From positions 71,486,001 to 71,550,000 of the forward strand of contig NC_043008.1 of NCBI RefSeq assembly GCF_006345805.1: a DNA stretch of 64,000 nt. Reading direction: 5' to 3'. Shown here piece by piece: positions 3,001-62,140 of this stretch. The position numbers and the translations under genes were made by a program. The notes under the pieces were generated by a model that saw nothing but the letters and a program-made list of their open reading frames with translations, was not told the DNA's origin and searched no databases. Source of the DNA: Octopus sinensis. Lineage: Eukaryota. The stretch's first letter is position 1; each line of letters begins with the position of its first letter.

Positions 3001-3311
3001 CTTCCAAACACAATAGGAGTTATGCGTCTGTGCGCATACTATTACTCGCACTCTCTCTTCCTCCCTCTTTTTCCATTCGTCCCCCCTCTCTTTCTTTGTC
3101 ATACGCTCAGACATAATTTAAAGTAAATCTATCACAATTATAGAATTCTCTATTTTGTGATAATCATCTTCATGAAACTTGTTCAGCATCATAAATTATG
3201 AACTATATAAATGGAATTCATTATTATTAAACAATTGCAGCGTGGAAGGTGTTTATAAGCCATTTAAGAAACACACAAAACCGTTAGATTCACTTTAACA
3301 TATAAATTTAA

Positions 3312-3362
3312 TTTGTCAAAATATTTTCGTCGGTTTGGGACCGCGACCTGTTCACTGACAAA
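3312..3362 (-). ncRNA. Second copy of G3-C8 hammerhead (opposite arm)
   Basis: Reverse complement of 3419-3469 with one helix II mismatch. Confidence 0.75.
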
Positions 3363-3418
3363 GCTTCGTGCTGCATGAAGTTTTGTCAGTGAAGCTTTAT
3401 CGAGAAGCAGCACGAAGC

Positions 3419-3469
3419 TTTGTCAGTGAACAGGTCGCGGTCCCAAAGCGACGAAAATATTTTGACAAA
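3419..3469 (+). ncRNA. Type I hammerhead ribozyme, G3-C8 core variant
   Basis: TTTGTCA-GTGAACA-G-GTCGC(ggtcccaaa)GCGAC-GAAA-ATAT-TT-TGACAAA: 7 bp helix I, 5 bp helix II, palindromic AATATT helix III, UUU triplet. Confidence 0.8.
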
Positions 3470-3649
3470 TTAAATTCATATGTTGAAGTGAATCTAACGG
3501 GTTTGCGTTTTTTTTAAATGGCTTATAAACACCTTCCACGCTGCAATTGTTTTCGTTCCAGCACACGATCTCAGATCAAGTCTCTCGCTATGCAAGTACA
3601 TCTCCGTAATTATTATCAAAATGTTATGCTAAATAAGTTGTTCTTGAAT

Positions 3650-7708: not shown

Positions 7709-7917
7709 TCTTTTCTACTGTAGGCACAAGACTCAGAAACTTTTTGGGGGGTCTAGTCAATGAGATCGATTCCACTACGCAACTGGTACTTAATCTATCA
7801 ACCCCGGAAGGATGAAAGGTAAAGTCGACCTCGGCGGAATTTGAACTCAAAACGTAAAGACAGATGAAATAATGCTAAGCAATTCGCCCGGCGTGCTAAC
7901 ATTTCTACCAGCCCGCC
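7709..7917 (-). mobile_element. tRNA-derived SINE family A (Deu/Nin-like central domain)
   Basis: Reverse complement of the 10123-10356 family; GTCGACTTT.CCTTTCATCCTT.CGGGGT.GATA core. Confidence 0.85.
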
Positions 7918-10122: not shown

Positions 10123-10356
10123 GGCGGCGAGCTGGCAGAAACGTTAGCACGTCGGGCGAAATGCTTAGCGGTATTTCGGCTGCCGTTACGTTGTTAGTTC
10201 AAATTCCGCCGAGGTCGACTTTGCCTTTCATCATTTCGGGGTCGATAAATTAAGTACCAGTTACGCACTGGGGTCGATATAATCGACTTAATCCGTTTGT
10301 CTGTCCTTGTTTGTCCTCTCTGTGTTTAGCACCTTGTGGGTAGTAAAGAAATAGGT
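10123..10356 (+). mobile_element. SINE family A, full length, with 13 bp TSD
   Basis: GGCGGCGAGCTGGCAGAA head, GTTCAAATTCC B-box, Deu/Nin-like core; TSD ATTATCTATTTAC at 10110-10122 and 10357-10369. Confidence 0.9.
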
Positions 10357-23419: not shown

Positions 23420-23600
23420 TATAACGTTGATTTTCGGCATGGTCATTATGCTTTTTTTTCTCAAATAAACACATGTACTATATATTTTTTCTTCACTCGT
23501 TTATTACTGTTCTTATTTTATTATTATAACTCATGTCCATTGTCCTGAAATCTTTCGTCAGTCATCTGTGACCTCTTCAGCGACACTTTTCGTTTTCCTG
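23420..23600 (-). mobile_element. Relative of the 4760-4957 element with a degenerate HHR at ~23541-23587
   Basis: TTTCGG.ATGGTCA..AAACAC..ACTATATATTT shared; CTGAAGA-G-GTCA..TGAC-GAAA on the minus strand. Confidence 0.6.
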
Positions 23601-31364: not shown

Positions 31365-31615
31365 ATAGAATGGTTGTATACTGTCAATCTAACAAGAACG
31401 TGACAGTAGGGGGTACACCACCGCTGTATAGCCCTAGGAAGCATCGAACGCCTCCTGATAGCTTTGACACATTTTTCCCTATATGTATATAAGGACACAG
31501 GGAAAAAATGTGTCAAAGCTATCAGGAGGCGTTCGATGCTTCCTAGGGCTATTCAGTGGTGGTGTACCCCCTACTGTCACGTTCTTGTTAGATTGACAGT
31601 ATACAACCATTCTAT
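31365..31615. repeat. Near-perfect inverted repeat (arms 31365-31480 / 31499-31615)
   Basis: ~116 bp arms with ~3 differences, 18 bp spacer, (TA)n flanks. Confidence 0.95.
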
Positions 31616-41194: not shown

Positions 41195-41374
41195 GTTCTA
41201 TAGTTGAGAGATGAGGAATTATGTACGTTATTTACATTTGACGGATATTTGTCCTCATCTTGTTTATTGTTAACATAACTTTTCGGCTGATGTACTCTCC
41301 AGCCTTCATCAGGTGTCCAGGGGAATTTCGAACCTGGGTTCTCATTCCTAAGGTATTTTCCGATGGTGTTGTTG

Positions 41375-41413
<39 letters not shown>

Positions 41414-44062: not shown

Positions 44063-44832
44063 GGCAGCGAGCTGGCAGAAGCGTTAGCACGCCGGGCGAA
44101 ATGCGTAGCCGTATTTCGTCTGCCGTTACGTTCTGGTTCAAATTCCGCCGAGGTCGACTTTGCCTTTCATCCTTTCGGGGTCGATAAATTAAGTACCAGT
44201 TACGCACTGGAGTCGATATAATCGACTTAATCTGTTTCTCTGTCCTTGTTTGTCCCCTCTGTGTTTAGCCCCTTGTGGGTAGTAAAGAAATAGGTATTTC
44301 GTCTGCCGCTACGTTCTGAGTTCAAATTCTGCCGAGGTCAACTTTGCTTTTCATCCTTTCGGGGTCGATTAAATAAGTACCAGTTACGCACTGGAGTCGA
44401 TATAATCGACTTAATCCGTTTGTTTGTCCTTGCTCGTCCTCCCTGTGTTTAGCCCCTTGTGAGTAGTAAAGAAATAGGTATTTCGTCTTCTTTAAGTTCT
44501 GAGTTCAAATTCCGCCGACGTCGACTTTGCTTTCATCCTTTAGGGGTCGATAAACTAAATACCAGTTGCGTAATGGGGTTGATCTAATCGACTGGCACCT
44601 TCCCCAAAGATGTCGGTCCTTATGTCTAAAGCAGAAAAAAAAGAATATTTTTATTAATCATGGCGGCATTTCGTCTGCCTTTACGTTCTGGGTTCAAATG
44701 CCTCATGGGTCGACTTTGCCTTTCACCTTCCCGGGGTCGATAAATTAAATACCTATTACGCACTGGGGTCGATGTAATCGACTCATCCCTTTCACCCAAA
44801 TTTTAGGCCTTCTGCCTGTAGTGGAAAGAATT
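44063..44832 (+). mobile_element. Tandem array of four SINE family A units
   Basis: Units restart at GG(T/C)ATTTCGTCT at 44293, 44477 and 44665; only the first has the 5' head. Confidence 0.9.
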
Positions 44833-46619
44833 ATTTTCATTAATCATAACATAGCGTTTATTTTTATAAATATCCACCAAACCGATTTACTTCTTAAACA
44901 AGAAATTTGATTGCTAATTTTATATTTTGCTTCAGGGATTGATTTTTCATCGTATCTTTTAGGACATTTATATTCTCGTATTATTACTCTTATGTTAATT
45001 AAACAGTTAAAGAGTAGTTGTATGATAAGAAAAAGAAAAGATTTGTTAAAATCTGATGTCGCAAAAACTATCAACGCCAAATAGCATTGTAATACTGAAA
45101 TATGGTAAATCCTATTCGCTCATTGTTTCTTTGTGGTTCACTTGTTTTTATTGAACAATTAATTATTTTAACAATAAGAGAGGTTATTATTGGTTTGGTG
45201 ATCTGCAATTTCATTTTTAATAAAAGCATATTAATCTACCATACTCAATTTCAATTTTCTTTTTTTAATAGCAGAAATGTTAGAAATTTCTTTAAACGCA
45301 AAGAAAATGTAACTATGACTGTTTGGGGGATTGGTACTTGTGCGTAAAAAGCACACAGAGGGAAGAACTATTACGATATAATGAACGCATTAATGTTGCG
45401 GCTATACGCAACATAAACCAATAAAAGAAAAAAATAAGTTGTCACTAGTTGTAACTGAGGTGTATAGGGTAGCACCTACATTGCTAAAAATAAGAGTTAA
45501 AAACCCTTAGAACCCCAAGGAAGCATAGTTTCATACGCTGACAGGGGACATAATCGCTCCACAGTGAGCCAGCTTACTATACCATACTAAACTATGTATA
45601 TATACATATGTGTGTGTGTTATGTGTGTGTGTGTGTGTGTGTGTGCGTATATATGTATGTATTCATGTATGTATGTATTAATGTATGTATGTATGGGTAT
45701 ACACTTGCATATGGTGTTTGTGTGAGTCTGTGCGTACATATCTAAATATAAATAGCTGTAAATGTCAAAATTTAAGTATTCATATATTTCTGTTCGTATC
45801 GCTTCTTCGTTCCCACATTTCCTCGCCTCTGTAATTTCTCCTACCCCACGACGGGTTTTACTTTTCATACTCCCTCTAGAACTCCGTCGGCTCGGTCAAA
45901 ACATATCTAATAACGTAAACATTGGTGATGTCACATGCTTACTGATGTTATATGCTTCTTTTTTTGATACACTGAGTAGCTGCAGAATTTCATCCATGAA
46001 AAATCCCAGTAAGGCGTCGAGTGTTTAAAATCAATGAATAACTGCAAACCAGAAAGTATTAAGTATGACACATATTTAATATATGTTTTCCCTGAACAAA
46101 ACTCCGCAGCTAATAAGCGTATATACGAAACACATGCCTTAAGAATGTGACATTAGTTTACATTATTACAGTTGCTTGTAATTCAAACTTAATTTTGTTC
46201 TACTGTAGCATCACTTTTACTCATTACAATATAGATTTTACGCTATCTGCATATGTAATTCAGACAAAAGATTAGCATTCATTTCAAGGTGACTTCTATA
46301 TATATTGCCAATAAGCTGAATTACCAGCGAAATACCGATATCCACCATTCTTATTCACCCTCAGAACTATTCGCTATTCAGCGCTTTTTAATACTGAACT
46401 TCTTAAAGGTGTATTTCCGTGACAAATTGTCGCAACTACTAAGTATACATATTTTTTTGTATGTGTGTATCTGTAAGATTGTGGGTAGTTAGTATGTTTT
46501 GCACATCAGGGAGTACTCATTGGGGATGGTAGCACATGTGTATGAGTGATGTACCTGTATGTGAGTATGTATAACTGACTGTATGTGTTGAGTCCAAATG
46601 GCGTATTTCAGTACATATA

Positions 46620-46802
46620 CAGGTGGTGGCGATCCCTGCTGTACTCTTTCGCCACAACTTTCTCTCACTCTTTCTTCTGTTGGCCTGCTCACTTAGCCAG
46701 CGGGGTGGCGTCGTTTGAAGGCTAAAACAATGCGAAGCGCATTCTGACCAGCGATGTGTAACAACATCTGATAGCCTGGTCGGTCACGGTGATCACGGTG
46801 AT
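46620..46802 (+). mobile_element. Short retroposon 3' end with (CACGGTGAT)2 tail
   Basis: GC-richer island ending in a tandem tail then (TA)n; family assignment from recollection only. Confidence 0.5.
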
Positions 46803-46911
46803 ATATATATATAGGCAAGGAAAAATTATAAAAAGGCAGAATGCTAATTTGAAGGTAAATTTTAATGAAAATGGGTGTATGGAAAATGAAAAAATATTTT
46901 TTTTAAATATT

Positions 46912-46953
46912 AACTCTAACCGGTTTTCGCCGCAATGCAACTTTTCAAGAATT
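46912..46953 (-). ncRNA. Type I hammerhead ribozyme, U3-A8 core variant
   Basis: AATTC-TTGAAAA-GTTGC(att)GCGGC-GAAA-ACCGGT-TA-GAGTT; palindromic AACCGGTT helix III, UUA triplet. Confidence 0.75.
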
Positions 46954-47166
46954 GTAAGGTGAAAAGAAGATATATATATATATATGTTTGTGTATATATA
47001 TATATACACATTATGTATGTAAGTATAGTTTCCACTGAACTGAATGAGGGTGCTAGTCTGCACCTAGCATTGCTAGAAATAAGAATGAAACAGCTCTTAG
47101 AGGCGTGGGAGCACCTTTAAAACGACTGGCAAGAAAGACAACCCCCCCCTACGGTAAGCGAGATGT

Positions 47167-47214
47167 AGTTATATCAACGCTGATTTCAGATTTGACTTAT
47201 CTTCATCAGTGACC
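47167..47214 (-). ncRNA. Type I hammerhead ribozyme within a ~540 bp (TA)n-flanked element (~47015-47555)
   Basis: GGTCA-CTGATGA-AGAT(aagtcaa)ATCT-GAAA-TCAGCGTTGA-TA-TAACT; AUA triplet. Confidence 0.8.
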
Positions 47215-47555
47215 CATTCTTCAGTTGCTGAGGGCTACAACAATAATTTGCCTTGTCAATCATATAGAGAACAACATAGGAAACATTGATACCGAAAATA
47301 GTGAAGCGTATATCATAGATTATTAATGTGGCTATTCACAATTTACAACCGAAAGAGAACAAGTATAATTATCACTAAATTGACTAAGGATGCTTGTCAG
47401 CACCAAGATTGCTAGAAGAGTTAAAACATCTTTAAGCTAGGTGAGAGCACTTTCCTAACGACTAACAAGGGAAACAAGTTGCCTCTCAATCACTTTAGTA
47501 ACGACTACACTTGTTATTTTTCGTTTGTAAATTGCGGATGGCCATCTTAATAATT

Positions 47556-48557: not shown

Positions 48558-48685
48558 AAAGAAACCGATAGAATAAGTACTAGGCTTACAAAGAATAAGT
48601 ACTGGGGTCGATTCGCTCGACTAAAGGCGGTGCTCCACCATGGCCGCTAACAAATGATTAAAACAAGTAAAAGAGTAAAAGAGAG
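48558..48685 (+). mobile_element. SINE family B tail
   Basis: GAAACCGATAGAATAAGTACTAGGC..AAGTAAAAGAGTAAAAGAG. Confidence 0.85.
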
Positions 48686-48993
48686 GGCTATATTCAAAAA
48701 TATACCTATACATATCAAAGTTGTTTTATATTCTATAATTTTCACAGACAATAAATACGATATTATTTGTTATTGCCTGAGATTTTGGTGTAATTTGAGA
48801 GGATAATACAAAAGTTATAGATGATTTAGTGATTTACTGAAAAAACCATGGCGGTCAAAATGATCAGAACGGTTGCTTTTACTCCGTGTTTTAGTATATT
48901 TAACCGGCGAACTCTAATGTTTTGAATTTGTTTACGTGGCGGTTCGTTTACTAAACATTAGTAAGAATATTTGCAGTGTACTTTGTTTATATA

Positions 48994-49872
48994 ATGCCAC
49001 TTACTCCGTTACCAATTCGTCAGTAGATTATTAAACTTCGAAGGAAGGATAATTTAAGTATTGGATCTATTGCACAGATTGTTAACAAGTCAAAAAGTGT
49101 TCTACACGGTATTCTTGAGGTCTACGATGATTGTGGTTCGTGTGAAGCAAGAAAGTTTACAGGTAGTCCAAGAAAAATGACCAAGAGAGAAGATCGTGCT
49201 ATGGTAAAGTTGGTTAAAAAGGACAGATTTAAAACTGCTGCTGCTGTTTCTCGGAAAATGAGCATTGTATTGAAGAAAACTTTATCTCGAAAAACTGTGT
49301 CTCGTCGTTTAGTTGAACATGATCTACAAGCAAGAGCACCTGCAGTGAAGCCACTGATCAGCTCCAAAAATAAAAAGTGTCGTCTTACCTTTGCAACCGA
49401 ACATGTGTTGTGGTCTCAAGAAAAATGGCAAACGGTGCATTTCAGTGATGAATCTAAGTTAATGTTATTTGGCTCAGATGGGAAAAGGTACGTTCGTAGA
49501 AAAGTAGGTGAAAAGTTGTCGCCTAAATGCCTTAAGACTAGTGTTAAATTCGGTGGAGGAAGTGTCATAGTTTGGGGAATGATATCTGGAGATGGTGTGG
49601 GCCCTTTGGTGCGATTACATGGAAAGGTAAATGCAGGAGTTTATAAACAACTTGTAAAAGATCATGTCTTTCCTGTGCTGAGAAATTCAACTAAGCGACC
49701 ACCCATATTCATGCAGGACAATGCCCCATGTCACAAGGCTAAGGTGGTCATGAACTTCCTCAAGGCTGAAAAGGTTATTCTTATGGATTGGCCTGCTCAA
49801 AGCCCAGATCTCAATCCTATTGAAAACGTATGGAATATTCTAGGAGAACGTTCGAAAGCGAGAAATCCTAAA
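48994..49872 (+). pseudogene. Tc1 DD34E transposase pseudogene
   Basis: In-frame ATG at 48994, premature TAG at codon 11, GSPR (GRPR-like), FSDESK, KFGGGSVIVWG, FMQDNAPCH, SPDLNPIE with exactly 34 residues between D and E; homology lost after ..ARNPK (3' truncated). Confidence 0.92.
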
Positions 49873-50121
49873 TACTTACATCTATATGCAAATGCTTGCA
49901 TTTATGCAGCCATACAATATGTAAACATTACAAGTATGTGGATGCAAACAGGAAGAATAAGACTCAAAATATGACTAAAGGCATATTTTCATTAATATTA
50001 ATCAGAAGCAACAGAATGATTCATGGTCCGAGAGTTTTGTGCGTTGGTAATTATTATAAAGTTTACTTCTGCTAAATATTGGTAAAAATCTATGTAAGCA
50101 TTTCTCTCTCTTTCTCTCTCT

Positions 50122-50188
<67 letters not shown>

Positions 50189-50212
50189 CAGGTATATTTT
50201 TGAATATAGCCC

Positions 50213-50385
50213 TCTCTTTTACTCTTTTACTTGTTTCAATCATTTGCCAGCGGCCATGGTGGAGCACTGCTTTTAGTCGAGCGAATCGATCCCAGTACTT
50301 ATTCTTTGTAAGCCTAGTACTTATTCTATCGGTTTCTTTTGCCGAACCGCTATGTTACGGATACATAAACACACCAGCATCGGAT
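50213..50385 (-). mobile_element. SINE family B tail
   Basis: Reverse complement of 48558-48685, extending further into the element. Confidence 0.85.
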
Positions 50386-55119: not shown

Positions 55120-55396
55120 CAACAATTGAGGGTAAAATTAATTAATCAATTTCACCAAGTGTTCAGTATGTAAAAGGACCATTTAAGGCGAATTCAAAAT
55201 ATTACATTATATAATTAGGGCTTAGTAAAATAAATTACTTTGCCACATACTGAACATAATAGAAATAGCAGCCAAAAAAAAATTTTTTATCCATTTCTAC
55301 TACTTAAAGAAAATTTCTCTCAGATAATGTTTACTCAAGATAACTCACGAAGGTATGGAGGTAAATACAGAAAAATATCACAAGTACAAAGATCGT

Positions 55397-55457
55397 TTGA
55401 GAACGTCAACGTTTCTAGATTAGCCAAATAAAATCAGCATTTCTTTCGTCAGCTCAA
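55397..55457 (-). ncRNA. Type I hammerhead ribozyme (copy of 55774-55834)
   Basis: Exact reverse complement. Confidence 0.8.
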
Positions 55458-55773
55458 AATTTCTTAATTTGGATTTGGAAACACTAAAAAGAAAGAACTT
55501 TACCTCTCGGCGAACTTATCACCTCAGATGAACCAGCTCAAACTGCCAGTGCTAACAAATTCAAAATGCGCAAGCGTAAATTCCTGCACTCCTCTTCCAC
55601 CCACGTGGTCCATCTAGCAAACATTATATTTTAACCGCGAGGACCGAGGCAGTATGACAGAGAGAAATGAATTATAATATCAACAATTGAGGGTAAAATT
55701 AATTAATCAATTTCACCAAGTGTTCAGTATGTAAAAGGACCATTTAAGGCGAATTCAAAATATTACATTACTA

Positions 55774-55834
55774 TTGAGCTGACGAAAGAAATGCTGATTT
55801 TATTTGGCTAATCTAGAAACGTTGACGTTCTCAA
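55774..55834 (+). ncRNA. Type I hammerhead ribozyme
   Basis: TTGAG-CTGACGA-A-AGA...TCT-A-GAAA-CGTTGACG-TT-CTCAA; GUU triplet. Confidence 0.8.
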
Positions 55835-56949
55835 ACGATCTTTGTACTTGTGATATTTTTCTGTATTTACCTCCATACCTTCGTGAGTTATCTTGAGTAA
55901 ACATTATCTGAGAGAAATTTTCTTTAAGTAGTAGAAATGGATAAAAAATTTTTTTTTTGGCTGCTATTTCTATTAAGTTCAGTATGTGGCAAAGTAATTT
56001 ATTTTACTAAGCCCTAATTATATAATGTAATATTTTGAATTCGCCTTAAATGGTCCTTTTACATACTGAACACTTGGTGAAATTGATTAATTAATTTTAC
56101 CCTCAATTTTACCCACTGCTTTGTCACTTCATTCGAGAGTTGTGGGAGGCTATCGAGGTAGCCGATAAAGTCCATAAATCCTTGTGACTGACTACTTTCT
56201 CTGAAGAGTTGAGCAAAATGATGCTTGAAGCCGTGGATACTTGCTTTGAATCGTACAGTAAGCGTCCATCCTGATTCGTGAAAGACTGAATTGTGGCCTT
56301 CTTACCCTTAACCTCCCAAGCCCATTAAACTCATTGAATTTATTCTTGTTGTAACAGATTATTACTAACGTTGACAAAGCATCCTTCGAATAAATTGCAA
56401 GTTGGATGCATTTCTAATTGCCTCCTCAGTTTACTAACAAACTCCCCCTCCTCCTCCTCATTCTCCTCTAATCTATTTCTCTCTAAACACAATAACCACT
56501 GTATTTAATTGCCCTTGTTGTTGACTACTTCACCTGTCAAATGCCGCTTCACTAGGTCGCTAATTCAGTTTCCGCATTTATCTTTTCGTGTTGGGAAAGA
56601 TGCATTCCATTTCCAGTAACCGGATTCCTGTCTATGTGTCCTATCTGAAGTAATTACGCAGATTACAAGTTTGTGATTTGTGTAACCGGCCAGTTATAGA
56701 GATTTTAAAAAACTATATTTTCCAGCTAACTTAACTTATAATCAAAGCACGATTTGGAAAACCCATTTTTGTGTAAGTTGACATTTTCGAAAATTCCGTT
56801 GGGTACCTATTAAAATCTGGAAACGTCGGAACATGTTTTGCAGGGAAATGTATCGCCTTCTGTGTGTTAAACCTACACAATCCATCTTGCGTGCAAAACA
56901 ATATTCTACTCCCCTGGTACGAACCGTGGTGTGGTGGTGCTGATGAGAA

Positions 56950-58592
56950 AGGATCTGAAGTAGGGGGACCAAAGGGAAAATTTAGGTTCATAACTCTCTT
57001 GAGCGCAGCTTACAAGATTTTGGCCAAGGCGTTAGCCAACAGGATAGCGCGTGTCGTCAATAAACTGGCCGGTGTCGAGCAAACAAAGTTATCCTGAGTA
57101 AATCTATCAACGACAACCTCCATGTCAGCACGCGTTAAATCATAGACAACGTAGTGAAGGAACCAGTCATGGGTAGGGCCCTGATCATTTGGGATCAAAA
57201 GCTTTTGATAGAGTCTACCATCAATCCTTGAAAACTCTCCTCGTAGCACCTGGTTTCGATCGCGTTTTCAGAAGCTGGATCGCTGCAGTATCCATCGACA
57301 TCTTCTCGGTGGTCAAAGTCAATGGCCACCTATCGGAAACGTTTATTATCGTACGTTCGGCTCATCAAAGATGCCCACTCTAGCCTCGTCTCTATGTACT
57401 GGCCCTCGAGCCACCACTAAGCAAGTTTGATGTTTCGAAAGGTGTATCACGTGAGTTAGGATGCGGAAATCTCGTGTCGGCTTATGTGGATGACATCACC
57501 CTAATAGTGTCGGACATCTCGTAAATCGAGGTGATCAACACTACCTTAAAGAGTACGAAGCGATTACAGGAGCAACGATTCACCCGGAGCATTTAGTGGA
57601 TATGGAGCTCGGCATCAGGAAAGGCAGTTTCATGTCGGTTAAAATGCTTGGAGTCTGCTTTGTTCCGCACCTCCAGGTGGACTAGAACTGATGTCAAGTG
57701 ACGAGAAGGGAATTTGCTCTTCGGTTTTCTATGTAAAGAACGTGTTCAACTTACAGCCATCTGGCTGTTGGATAGTGATATCGGTGGCAGTTCCTCATTG
57801 GAATTCGACAGGGGAGCAGTGGTGGGCAACAGCGATTACTTCCTCGGGAAAACTTTCGGGCCGTGGCCTATTGATAATCTCCAGATATTCTTGTTCTAGT
57901 AATGCTATCGGGAGTTCTGCCTGTTCAAGACAGGCTCTACAGGAACCAAAATATTGTCAGACGGATGTGTGTGAGAGGTGCGCAGGGCGATGAAACCGTC
58001 TAGTCCCTGGGTATTAATGACACGTAAATCTTTGCGGATTAGCTGCTGATATGTGTAGGACGGATCAGGTTGTCAGCCGAATCCATCGTGAAGATCGCCA
58101 TGCTACCTTGCTTTAGACTGGAAGGGAAGACAGTTTTCTTCTACCTACTGGCTATGCGAAAGAGCTAGTATGATGCACGAAGTTGAAAGAACCAAAGAGA
58201 GATATTTGCTTCGGATAAGCCCTCATCGACTTTTCCAAGTTCTATTTGTAAAGGGAATTGAGGGTGGAGAGGGAAATATTGCCTCCCTAGTATTTTTGTT
58301 GAAAGGTGAGTGAATATGGCGCGAATGGCCCGTGTAAATGTGTCTACTCTGAACGTATACTTCTAAGCTTGAGGAAAGAGCCATCTGTTGAGATCGGGTA
58401 ATCAGGATGTGTGAGGTTTTTACGATGTCTCGGATTCGAAGATCCCCCATTTGAGGATTTTTATTTTTGGATTGTGTTAAATATTTTTGCTTTATTTTTA
58501 TTAAAAAAGTTTTGTGTTAAACCCGACGTGTCATTTGTATCATATCGTCCCTTTTTGTCTTGTGTTCGGCCCTTCTGGACAATAAAGGTAAG
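56950..58592 (+). mobile_element. Tx1/L1-like LINE relic (RT through zf-RVT and 3' UTR)
   Basis: FRFITLLSAAYKILAKALANRI, SKAFDRVYH, HQRCPL*P..ALEP, AYVDDI, CERC..DETV; multiple stops. Confidence 0.88.
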
Positions 58593-61152: not shown

Positions 61153-61972
61153 GGTGGATGCATGCTGTGTATAGTCCAGAATGAGAATTTACGTATGTGA
61201 GGGTTATTTGAATATGTTTTGGAAATTAAACAACAAACGTAACGGAGGATTTAAATAAAGCACTCAGACACACGTAATAAAATGTAGTGAACGAACATCA
61301 AACTAAATTGACCTTTAAACTCTATAAATGAATATTTTTCATTTTTATTTTTGTTTTCGCTAGTGAACTTTGGTGTACATTTTGTTTTTAAAATATCACA
61401 ACCAAATATAGCTATTCATGTCTCTGTGTGCATATATTTCCTGCTAAATTAAGCTTTAGTTCTGGTAAAATAACAAGGTTGAATATATTTGACATATGCG
61501 ATATATCTCAAAATTTATTGTTTTCAATCGGTCTCGTACAATTTTTATACTCACACTTGCTATTCAGGGTTTGATGAAACCAAATATAGCACCACGAACT
61601 TCGTTAAACGTATTAATTCTCTAAATTTGGTATGTTACTGTTCCCTATATATATCTGTCTCGTATCTGCAGACCCATCAGCTGTCGCTGTTATTCACTGA
61701 CAGTTGAATGGAATAAAAATATGAAATTCATGTACAATGGCGTAATACGCCGTCAATTTCGAAGACTGAACCGGCAGTGTAAGATTATAAGCGCAAGTCT
61801 CAAACTACTACGCCAAGCGCCTTCACCAATAACTTTAATGAAGGTCAAATATATTTCAGGATACAGTTAGAATATCGATGAAATGAAAGGAGTATCTCAG
61901 TGTTTGTGTTGATATGACTATTTTGAAAATTTATTCTCTCTACTGTACTACTTCTTTAGCTAATAGTAAACA

Positions 61973-62140
61973 TTCTTTTCTACTCTAGGCAAAATACCCA
62001 AAATTTTAGGGGAGGGGGTCAGTCGTTTAGATCGACCTCAGTACGCAACTGGTACTTAATTTATCGAAACCTAAAGGATGAAAGGCAAAGTCGACCTCAG
62101 CGGAATTTGAACACAGAACGTAAAGACAGACGAAATACCG
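61973..62140 (-). mobile_element. SINE family A (headless unit)
   Basis: GGATGAAAGGCAAAGTCGACCTC.GCGGAATTTGAA. Confidence 0.85.

What the first reader, a model, noticed from the sequence alone, without database searches (positions are those of the whole stretch)
46912..46953. Hammerhead with a U3-A8 core pair
Seen: core UUGAAAA with all three helices pairing, inside a ~160 bp segment between (TA)n tracts. With the canonical and G3-C8 forms, three of the four Watson-Crick 3-8 combinations occur in one window. That covariation argues for selection on catalysis.
Basis: partly seen in the sequence, partly recalled or inferred. Interest (0 to 1): 0.72.

Follow-up and report, generated by a model that had tools for sequence, protein, structure and literature searches.

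The report
Variant-core hammerhead in abundant animal repeat
A 42-base motif with the shape of a small hammerhead self-cutting RNA, whose core C-G pair is replaced by U-A, sits in a 156-base repeat found in many copies that keep the variant core; it likely belongs to a Penelope-like jumping gene and would cut only as a pair of copies (untested), and this core variant was already published in 2011 and 2014, so it is a new example of a known kind.

Summary
The motif is real. On the minus strand, 46953-46912 has type I minimal-hammerhead anatomy: 5-bp helix I, core UUGAAAA, 5-bp helix II opened by G10.1-C11.1, an 8-nt palindrome as helix III, and a UUA site. A strict descriptor gave 3 U3-A8 hits in 2,565 shuffled windows. 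It is not single-copy: 546-1,390 contigs per DNA-type run lay on the stretch. None of four runs shows a variant of 3% or more at U3, A8 or G10.1, and the common helix variants keep pairing, including G-C to A-U. U3-A8 is already known in natural hammerheads (PMC3088659) and in Schistosoma Penelope-like elements with the same core heptamer (PMC4209133). The 'three of four pairs' are in unrelated repeats. The C3-G8 copy is decayed and the two G3-C8 copies are one inverted duplication, so the window-level covariation is weak (about 0.07 by chance). No reverse-transcriptase gene could be linked, and cleavage is untested. The G3-C8 pair at 3.3-3.5 kb is the more novel lead: I found no natural G3-C8 report in the papers I could search. 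Verdict: new member of a known kind.

The parts
46912..46953 (-). Type I minimal hammerhead motif with U3-A8 core pair, palindromic helix III and UUA site
   Evidence: Sequence; descriptor scans; folding energies
46942..46948 (-). Core heptamer U3-A9; U3 = 46948, A8 = 46943
   Evidence: No variant at or above 3% of depth in 4 of 4 runs laid
46929..46941 (-). Helix II (5 bp, 3-nt loop), opened by G10.1-C11.1; no inserted base after A9
   Evidence: Variants among copies: 46930 U.G to U-A (97-99% in the three DNA-type runs); 46938/46932 G-C to A-U; 46929 G-C to G.U (2-15%)
46918..46925 (-). 8-nt palindrome, predicted to form helix III between two copies
   Evidence: Self-duplex -10.1 kcal/mol; double-hammerhead fold -18.1 against +1.1 for the monomer fold
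46916..46917 (-). Predicted scissile bond after A17
   Evidence: Hammerhead numbering and NUH rule; A17 is U in 13-35% and G in 3-9% of depth in the three DNA-type runs; cleavage untested
46814..46969 (-). 156-bp non-coding multi-copy repeat unit (likely a solo pseudo-LTR or short non-autonomous derivative): 16-nt U-rich leader, hammerhead, 98-nt AU-rich tail
   Evidence: One copy in the window; summed contig depth 14,400 at the core and up to 107,000 in the tail in run X1, against 16-57 for the single X1 contigs listed
46801..46813 (.). TA tract at the 3' end of the unit, likely the insertion target
   Evidence: Sequence; contigs of other copies also run through this tract, and loose ends before 46801 end in TA repeats (tables 7 and 8)
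46970..46985 (.). TA tract at the 5' end of the unit
   Evidence: Sequence; whether other copies share it is not shown, since depth falls to about 200 at 46969
3419..3469 (+). Unrelated minimal hammerhead motif with G3-C8 core, inserted base after A9, 7-bp helix I and UUU site
   Evidence: passes the strict descriptor
3312..3362 (-). Second G3-C8 copy, the other arm of the inverted repeat 3229-3374 / 3407-3552
   Evidence: differs from the first at one helix II base
41272..41317 (-). Unrelated, decayed C3-G8 minimal hammerhead
   Evidence: Core and 6-bp helix II found; first helix I pair and palindrome broken

Best explanation
The motif is a minimal type I hammerhead-shaped sequence with a U3-A8 core pair that is shared across the laid copies of an abundant 156-bp repeat, which is likely the leftover terminal repeat (pseudo-LTR), or a short non-coding derivative, of a Penelope-like retroelement that would have inserted into TA microsatellites. 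Mechanism, step by step. (1) Shown: the anatomy, the multi-copy family, U3-A8 in more than 97% of laid depth, and helix-keeping variants. (2) Predicted: one copy cannot close helix III; two copies in a tandem or read-through transcript pair their palindromes into an 8-bp helix III and form a double hammerhead. (3) From established chemistry: U3-A8 replaces the C3-G8 pair that positions residue 8 in the active fold, so cutting after A17 is retained, probably slowly and perhaps only with help from the element's protein. (4) Inferred: cutting trims unit-length element RNA out of long precursors. (5) Inferred: selection acted on the source elements, while scattered genomic copies such as this one drift neutrally.
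For: Strict descriptor: 3 U3-A8 hits in 2,565 shuffled windows; 35 hits of any core in 475,943 shuffles of the segment; 1,390, 1,221, 546 and 133 contigs laid in runs X1, X3, X10 and X15 (four studies; X1 may be the source sample), with no listed variant at 46939-46968. Variants by depth in X1/X3/X10: 46930 restores U-A (97/99/98%); 46938 (31/42/59%) with 46932 (4/43/58%) turns G-C into A-U, both changes being present in the single X15 contig covering the motif; 46914 turns U.G into U-A (13/31/33%) at matching frequency with A17 to U (14/29/35%). Dimer fold -18.1 kcal/mol, within 2.2 of the two-strand optimum, against +1.1 for the monomer. PMC4209133 describes dispersed single minimal hammerheads from truncated Penelope-like elements, about 1,300 U3-A8 hits in S. 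mansoni, a U-rich 5' and AU-rich 3' flank, and low but detectable dimer cleavage; its row S. mansoni(4) has the same core heptamer, and the M. japonicus row has the same no-insert, palindromic-helix-III, A17 layout. TA-repeat targeting is described for Penelope-like clades (PMC8557442). Pattern-only control: 0 of 13 metagenome matches had both helices.
Against: No reverse-transcriptase or GIY-YIG gene could be tied to the repeat: 126 of the 216 window ORFs of 70 aa or more were scanned and none matched near the motif, and no genome was available. No second copy lies in the window, so this copy has no nearby dimer partner. In run X1 the two halves of the G-C to A-U change do not match (31% against 4%), although half the depth ends between the two positions. 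Invariance at 46939-46968 may partly reflect how contigs are seeded, and the high depth there hides rare variants. Most variants are transitions, about half of which keep pairing anyway (my estimate). The usual inserted base after A9 is missing. U3 could mispair with A17, by analogy with the C3-G17 trap (PMC3884650). Some copies are decayed: G12, A13 or A14 changes at 3% or less in the DNA-type runs, and G12A in the X15 contig. Rfam does not score the motif even at E up to 10.
Confidence: 0.75

Rival explanations
1. The fold is real and inherited from a Penelope-like element, but in this family it is attenuated or dead as a catalyst and is kept as an RNA structure, for example a protein-binding or folding signal. 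U3 pairing with A17 would hold it in an inactive form.
For: A17 is the majority allele. A 3-17 Watson-Crick trap is proposed for C3-G17, and G3-C8 is reported as less active with C17 (PMC3884650). In the anole element, ribozyme mutants still inserted in vitro and no RNA-seq ends were found at the cut site (PMC11167929).
Against: The 3-8 pair belongs to the active conformation (PMC3884650) and is kept as a compensated pair. G12, A13 and A14 vary at about 3% or less in the three DNA-type runs. U3-A8 ribozymes are reported active in vitro (PMC3088659). The U3-A17 trap is my extrapolation.
Confidence: 0.13
2. The unit is an independent non-autonomous retrozyme-like element that spreads through small circular RNAs cut and joined by the hammerhead, borrowing a Penelope-like reverse transcriptase.
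For: Short, non-coding and very abundant. Animal non-LTR retrozymes carry type I hammerheads and are proposed to derive from pseudo-LTRs, with monomers among their copies (bioRxiv 10.64898/2026.07.22.740005; PMC7229834).
Against: Not in tandem here. The 156-bp unit is shorter than the roughly 300-bp monomers described. The short helix I without a loop is the minimal Penelope type. Two joints between opposite strands in run X3 (one contig each) fit inverted Penelope-type insertions, and no head-to-tail joint was listed.
Confidence: 0.1
3. The motif is a chance look-alike in AT-rich repeat DNA.
For: A loose U3-A8 descriptor hits 0.046 times per shuffled window; the strand is not more stable than shuffles; Rfam finds nothing.
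Against: Strict rate 0.0012 per window; pairing-preserving and compensatory variants among copies; match to the published layout.
Confidence: 0.02

Closest known systems
Minimal hammerheads (min-HHR) of metazoan Penelope-like elements, U3-A8 variant of Schistosoma mansoni Cercyon elements (Cervera and De la Pena 2014, PMC4209133)
   Same: Type I topology, short helix I, G10.1-C11.1, palindromic helix III, NUH site, U-rich and AU-rich flanks, dispersed single copies; identical core heptamer to the S. mansoni(4) row.
   Different: No inserted base after A9; longer palindrome (8 nt against 4); A17 instead of U17; different host (none of the 56 alignment rows is a cephalopod); no linked coding gene found here.
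Atypical PLE hammerheads with a small palindromic helix III (M. japonicus and S. kowalevskii(2) rows; Drosophila, rotifer and mosquito forms; PMC4209133)
   Same: No inserted base, short palindromic helix III and A17 in the M. japonicus and S. kowalevskii(2) rows.
   Different: Those rows have C3-G8; this one has U3-A8.
Natural U3-A8 hammerheads (Perreault et al. 2011, PMC3088659)
   Same: Same compensated core pair, reported there as natural and as previously shown active in vitro.
   Different: Here the motif has no stable helix III as a monomer and lies in an animal repeat.
Non-LTR retrozymes (PMC7229834; bioRxiv 10.64898/2026.07.22.740005)
   Same: Non-coding, abundant, type I hammerhead predicted to work as a dimer.
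   Different: Defined by tandem units that each carry the ribozyme; this copy is solitary and shorter; circular RNA not tested.

Membership tests
Metazoan PLE minimal hammerhead (min-HHR) | Core strands N3-UGA-N7-N8-A9 and GAAA with a Watson-Crick 3-8 pair | tested here: met
   U3-A8; accepted variant in PMC4209133
Metazoan PLE minimal hammerhead (min-HHR) | Short helix I (about 3-5 bp) and helix II opened by G10.1-C11.1 | tested here: met
   5 bp each; common variants keep pairing
Metazoan PLE minimal hammerhead (min-HHR) | Palindromic 15.2-16.2 / loop 3 allowing a dimer; NUH site | tested here: met
   8-nt palindrome, UUA; dimer fold -18.1 kcal/mol
Metazoan PLE minimal hammerhead (min-HHR) | Unpaired base between A9 and G10.1 (consensus feature, not universal) | tested here: not met
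   Absent. Also absent in 2 of the 44 published rows read (M. japonicus, S. kowalevskii(2)), so it does not define the family
Metazoan PLE minimal hammerhead (min-HHR) | Occurs as a multi-copy family with compensatory changes | tested here: met
   one compensated pair, concordant in 2 of 3 DNA-type runs and in the X15 contig, discordant in X1
Metazoan PLE minimal hammerhead (min-HHR) | Self-cleavage as a dimer | not testable with these tools
   Needs an assay; only contigs were laid, which cannot show RNA ends
Penelope-like element (EN+) | RT plus GIY-YIG ORF flanked by pseudo-LTRs that carry this motif | tested here: inconclusive
   No such ORF among 126 of 216 window ORFs scanned; no genome held; most published min-HHRs are also solitary
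Penelope-like element (EN+) | Insertion bias for microsatellites such as (TA)n (some clades) | tested here: met
   TA tracts on both sides here; other copies abut TA at the 3' end; PMC8557442
Non-LTR retrozyme | Tandem units that each carry a type I hammerhead | tested here: not met
   Single unit in the window; other loci could not be examined
Non-LTR retrozyme | Circular RNA intermediate | not testable with these tools
   No raw-read RNA run was offered for this stretch
Rfam hammerhead families | Score at or above the gathering threshold | tested here: not met
   0 hits window-wide at gathering; no hammerhead among 19 matches at E up to 10 in 46700-47300

The most novel reading that the evidence does not exclude
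This genome's retroelement families have independently fixed three of the four Watson-Crick pairs at the catalytic 3-8 position. One is a working G3-C8 family (3.3-3.5 kb) of a kind I could not find reported as natural. Position 17 would shift with position 3 to avoid, or to use, a 3-17 mispair: G3 with U17, and U3 with A17 or U17. The U3-A8/A17 form would then be a self-attenuated ribozyme and its U17 subfamily the faster form, giving a natural series for testing whether Penelope hammerheads are selected for cleavage rate.
Probability: 0.3. Interest if true: 0.55.

Novelty: new member of a known kind. Interest (0 to 1): 0.3.

Why it matters
As it stands it adds a host and an abundant family to a published variant, and shows that standard Rfam scans miss such motifs. 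The value is as material for an open question: what hammerheads do for Penelope-like elements, given that cleavage was dispensable for insertion in the one in vitro system (PMC11167929). A family that keeps a compensated catalytic pair and has natural A17/U17 subfamilies is a ready test set. If the G3-C8 motif proves to be an abundant, cleaving family, search descriptors would need all four 3-8 pairs.

Tried and rejected
Whole-genome analysis: no genome held. Rfam: nothing at gathering and no hammerhead at E up to 10 around either motif. Relatives in public collections: 0 matches in viral contigs and in prokaryote genomes; the 13 metagenome matches were chance (0 of 13 with both helices). Expression: no RNA holder listed; X15 is only guessed to be RNA and contigs cannot show ends, so nothing is concluded on transcription. 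Search for a linked RT/GIY-YIG gene: none near the motif; only a Tc1 transposase and a sub-threshold RVT_1 match 10 kb away (90 low-complexity ORFs of 216 were left out). Host identification through the transposase: no taxon names returned; 'octopus-like' rests on my recall of a cephalopod SINE and is untested. Supplements of PMC8557442 and PMC13282606 did not contain the motifs searched (one irrelevant coding match); file 1 of the PMC4209133 supplement could not be searched. Rejected as hammerheads: the look-alikes with position 3 at 47209 (-), 46692 (-) and 23580 (-), which lack helix I next to a valid NUH site. No A3-U8 motif passed. The paper on small dimeric hammerheads of Penelope-like elements (Lunse et al. 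2017, recalled) is not held and may bear on the G3-C8 novelty claim.

Full report
SETTING. The window is AT-rich (31-43% GC), full of microsatellites and repeats and nearly free of coding sequence. It reads as animal intergenic or intronic DNA. From recall only, the tandem SINE at 44111-44593 resembles octopus repeats; this was not confirmed (one search gave no taxon). No genome was held.

THE OBSERVATION. A type I descriptor without an inserted base returned one hit in the window, exactly 46953-46912 on the minus strand. It has a 5-bp helix I, core UUGAAAA, a 5-bp helix II opened by G10.1-C11.1, GAA, an 8-nt perfect palindrome from A15.1 to U16.1, and A17. The unit between the TA tracts is 46814-46969, 156 bp. 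Allowing one base after A9 adds two G3-C8 motifs, 3419-3469 (+) and 3312-3362 (-). These are the arms of one inverted repeat with 146-bp arms, 95% identity and a 32-nt spacer. The best canonical core, at 41312 (-), keeps helix II but has lost the first pair of helix I and its palindrome. Three other look-alikes fail, and no A3-U8 motif passes.

CHANCE. In 2,565 windows shuffled in 250-nt blocks with dinucleotides kept, the strict descriptor gave 34 hits (9 Watson-Crick at 3-8, 3 of them U3-A8). The loose descriptor gave 1,062 hits (284 Watson-Crick, 119 U3-A8). The strict features come from the published consensus (PMC4209133). The motif is therefore unlikely to be chance (about 0.001 per window), but two independent motifs both being Watson-Crick has a chance of about 0.07, so the window-level covariation argument is weak. 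The three motifs are unrelated in sequence. The monomer is not unusually stable (z +0.94). Helix III cannot close in one molecule (+1.1 kcal/mol), whereas two copies form a double hammerhead at -18.1, near the two-strand optimum of -20.3.

THE FAMILY. One search listed 24 runs, 20 holding at least part of 45720-47550, from 9 studies. I laid four runs (X1, X3, X10, X15; four studies, three coded organism labels; X1 may be the source sample) on 46780-46984 at 80% likeness and 3% share: 1,390, 1,221, 546 and 133 contigs. In X1 the summed depth is about 14,400 over the core and up to 107,000 over the AU-rich tail, against 16-57 for the single contigs listed. The tool warns that this is no copy number, but many distinct copies are plainly present. 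No variant is listed between 46939 and 46968, which covers U3, U4, G5, A6, A8, A9, G10.1 and the 5' strand of helix I. U3-A8 is thus a family trait, not a double accident in one copy. Percentages of depth in X1/X3/X10: 46930 makes U.G into U-A (97/99/98); 46938 (31/42/59) and 46932 (4/43/58) make G-C into A-U; 46914 makes U.G into U-A (13/31/33), at matching frequency with A17 to U (14/29/35); 46929 makes G-C into G.U (15/2/6). The single X15 contig over the motif carries both halves of the compensated pair and extends helix I by a C-G pair, but it also has G12A and a broken palindrome, so it is a decayed copy. Results against: the X1 frequencies of the compensated pair disagree; palindrome-breaking changes reach 3-11% at 46920-46921; A17G reaches 3-9%; transitions often keep pairing by default; seeding may favour the invariant run; and a sister family with C3-G8 below 80% likeness would not have been laid. 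Other copies abut TA repeats at the 3' end. Loose ends behind 46894 show that the tail is shared with copies that continue differently. The 5' flank of other copies was not resolved.

CONTROLS AND CONTEXT. The same core-and-palindrome pattern matched 13 metagenome loci, none with both helices. Viral and prokaryote collections gave nothing. Rfam missed the motif. Of 216 ORFs of 70 aa or more, 126 were scanned after a low-complexity filter; none near the motif matched an RT or GIY-YIG domain. The link to a Penelope-like element therefore rests on anatomy, TA targeting and precedent, not on a linked gene.

MECHANISM. Shown: anatomy, family, conservation. Predicted: dimer-dependent folding through the palindrome. 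From the literature: C3-G8 forms in the active conformation (PMC3884650, passages); U3-A8 versions are active in vitro and natural (PMC3088659, section 8); minimal Penelope hammerheads cleave weakly as dimers and not as monomers (PMC4209133, parts 1-2 of 4 and part 2 of supplement file 2); the anole element's ribozyme needs the element's protein, is killed by single 3 or 8 swaps, is partly rescued by the double swap, and is not needed for insertion in vitro (PMC11167929, parts 1-2 of 4). Inferred: in source elements the ribozyme trims element RNA from tandem or read-through precursors; this solitary copy is a by-product with no partner in the window. One detail is unexplained: U3 could pair with A17, as C3 is proposed to pair with G17. 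The U17 subfamily and the U17 of the G3-C8 motif would avoid such a trap. This is my extrapolation.

COMPARISON AND NOVELTY. U3-A8 was reported as natural in 2011 and, in about 1,300 hits, in S. mansoni Penelope-like elements in 2014, one row having the same core heptamer. The finding is therefore a new member of a known kind. Of the 56 rows of that paper's alignment (12 seen as passages, 44 read), 3 begin with U3, 53 with C3 and none with G3; none is a cephalopod. Searches for a natural G3-C8 returned only engineered mutants, and a search pairing hammerhead with octopus listed no ribozyme report among the 20 of 51 papers shown. The library lacks most subscription papers, including Lunse et al. 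2017 (recalled), and one supplement file could not be searched, so absence from print is not established. Also consulted: PMC8557442 (passages and a supplement search), PMC7229834 (passages), PMC6155905 (passages), PMC13282606 (passages and a supplement search; Penelope-like elements cover 6.83% of the O. vulgaris assembly, with no mention of ribozymes in the main text), and bioRxiv 10.64898/2026.07.22.740005 (part 1 of 5). Earlier AI notes of this scan report U3-A8 and G3-C8 candidates in other genomes; they are unchecked leads and are not counted as support.

VERDICT. Observation confirmed; interpretation partly supported; best explanation 0.75; interest 0.3. The G3-C8 inverted pair deserves its own follow-up.

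Noticed in passing
window 3229-3374 / 3407-3552: Inverted repeat (146-bp arms, 95%, 32-nt spacer) in which each arm carries a G3-C8 minimal hammerhead reading outward from the centre, with a 7-bp helix I, an inserted base after A9, a 6-nt palindrome and a UUU site. I found no natural G3-C8 report in the papers searched; family size untested.
   Followed up: partly
window 41272-41317 (-): Decayed canonical C3-G8 minimal hammerhead next to a (TTA)n tract at 41378-41409; a third unrelated repeat.
   Followed up: partly
window 23545-23586 (-) and 47170-47215 (-): Two more canonical core look-alikes with helix II but no clean helix I and NUH site; possibly old decayed copies.
   Followed up: partly
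window 46780-46813: End of a different repeat that also stops at the TA tract; its summed contig depth (about 650,000 in X1) is about six times that of the hammerhead unit's tail, so two elements share one TA target.
   Followed up: no
window 48558-50339: Tc1/mariner element: 157-bp inverted ends (96%) around a 315-aa transposase frame at 49027-49971 (HTH_Tnp_Tc3_2 and DDE_3); closest database relatives 70-82% identical over most of its length.
   Followed up: partly
window 55124-56108: Long near-perfect inverted repeat (arms of about 330 bp, 99-100%, 316-nt spacer), MITE-like and probably recent.
   Followed up: no
window 44111-44593: 2.6 tandem copies of a 184-bp unit with dispersed relatives near 7755-7917, 10126-10288 and 61968-62140; recalled as a cephalopod SINE, not tested.
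   Followed up: no
window 56777-57094 (+): Weak reverse-transcriptase match (RVT_1, E 0.008, below cut-off) in a more GC-rich stretch; probably a decayed retroelement fragment.
   Followed up: no
window 47010-47555: Internally repeated region (65-bp direct and 121-bp inverted matches, 71-78% alike) between TA tracts just upstream of the unit on the minus strand.
   Followed up: no
window 31365-31615: Hairpin-like inverted repeat with 115-bp arms (97%) and a 21-nt spacer.
   Followed up: no
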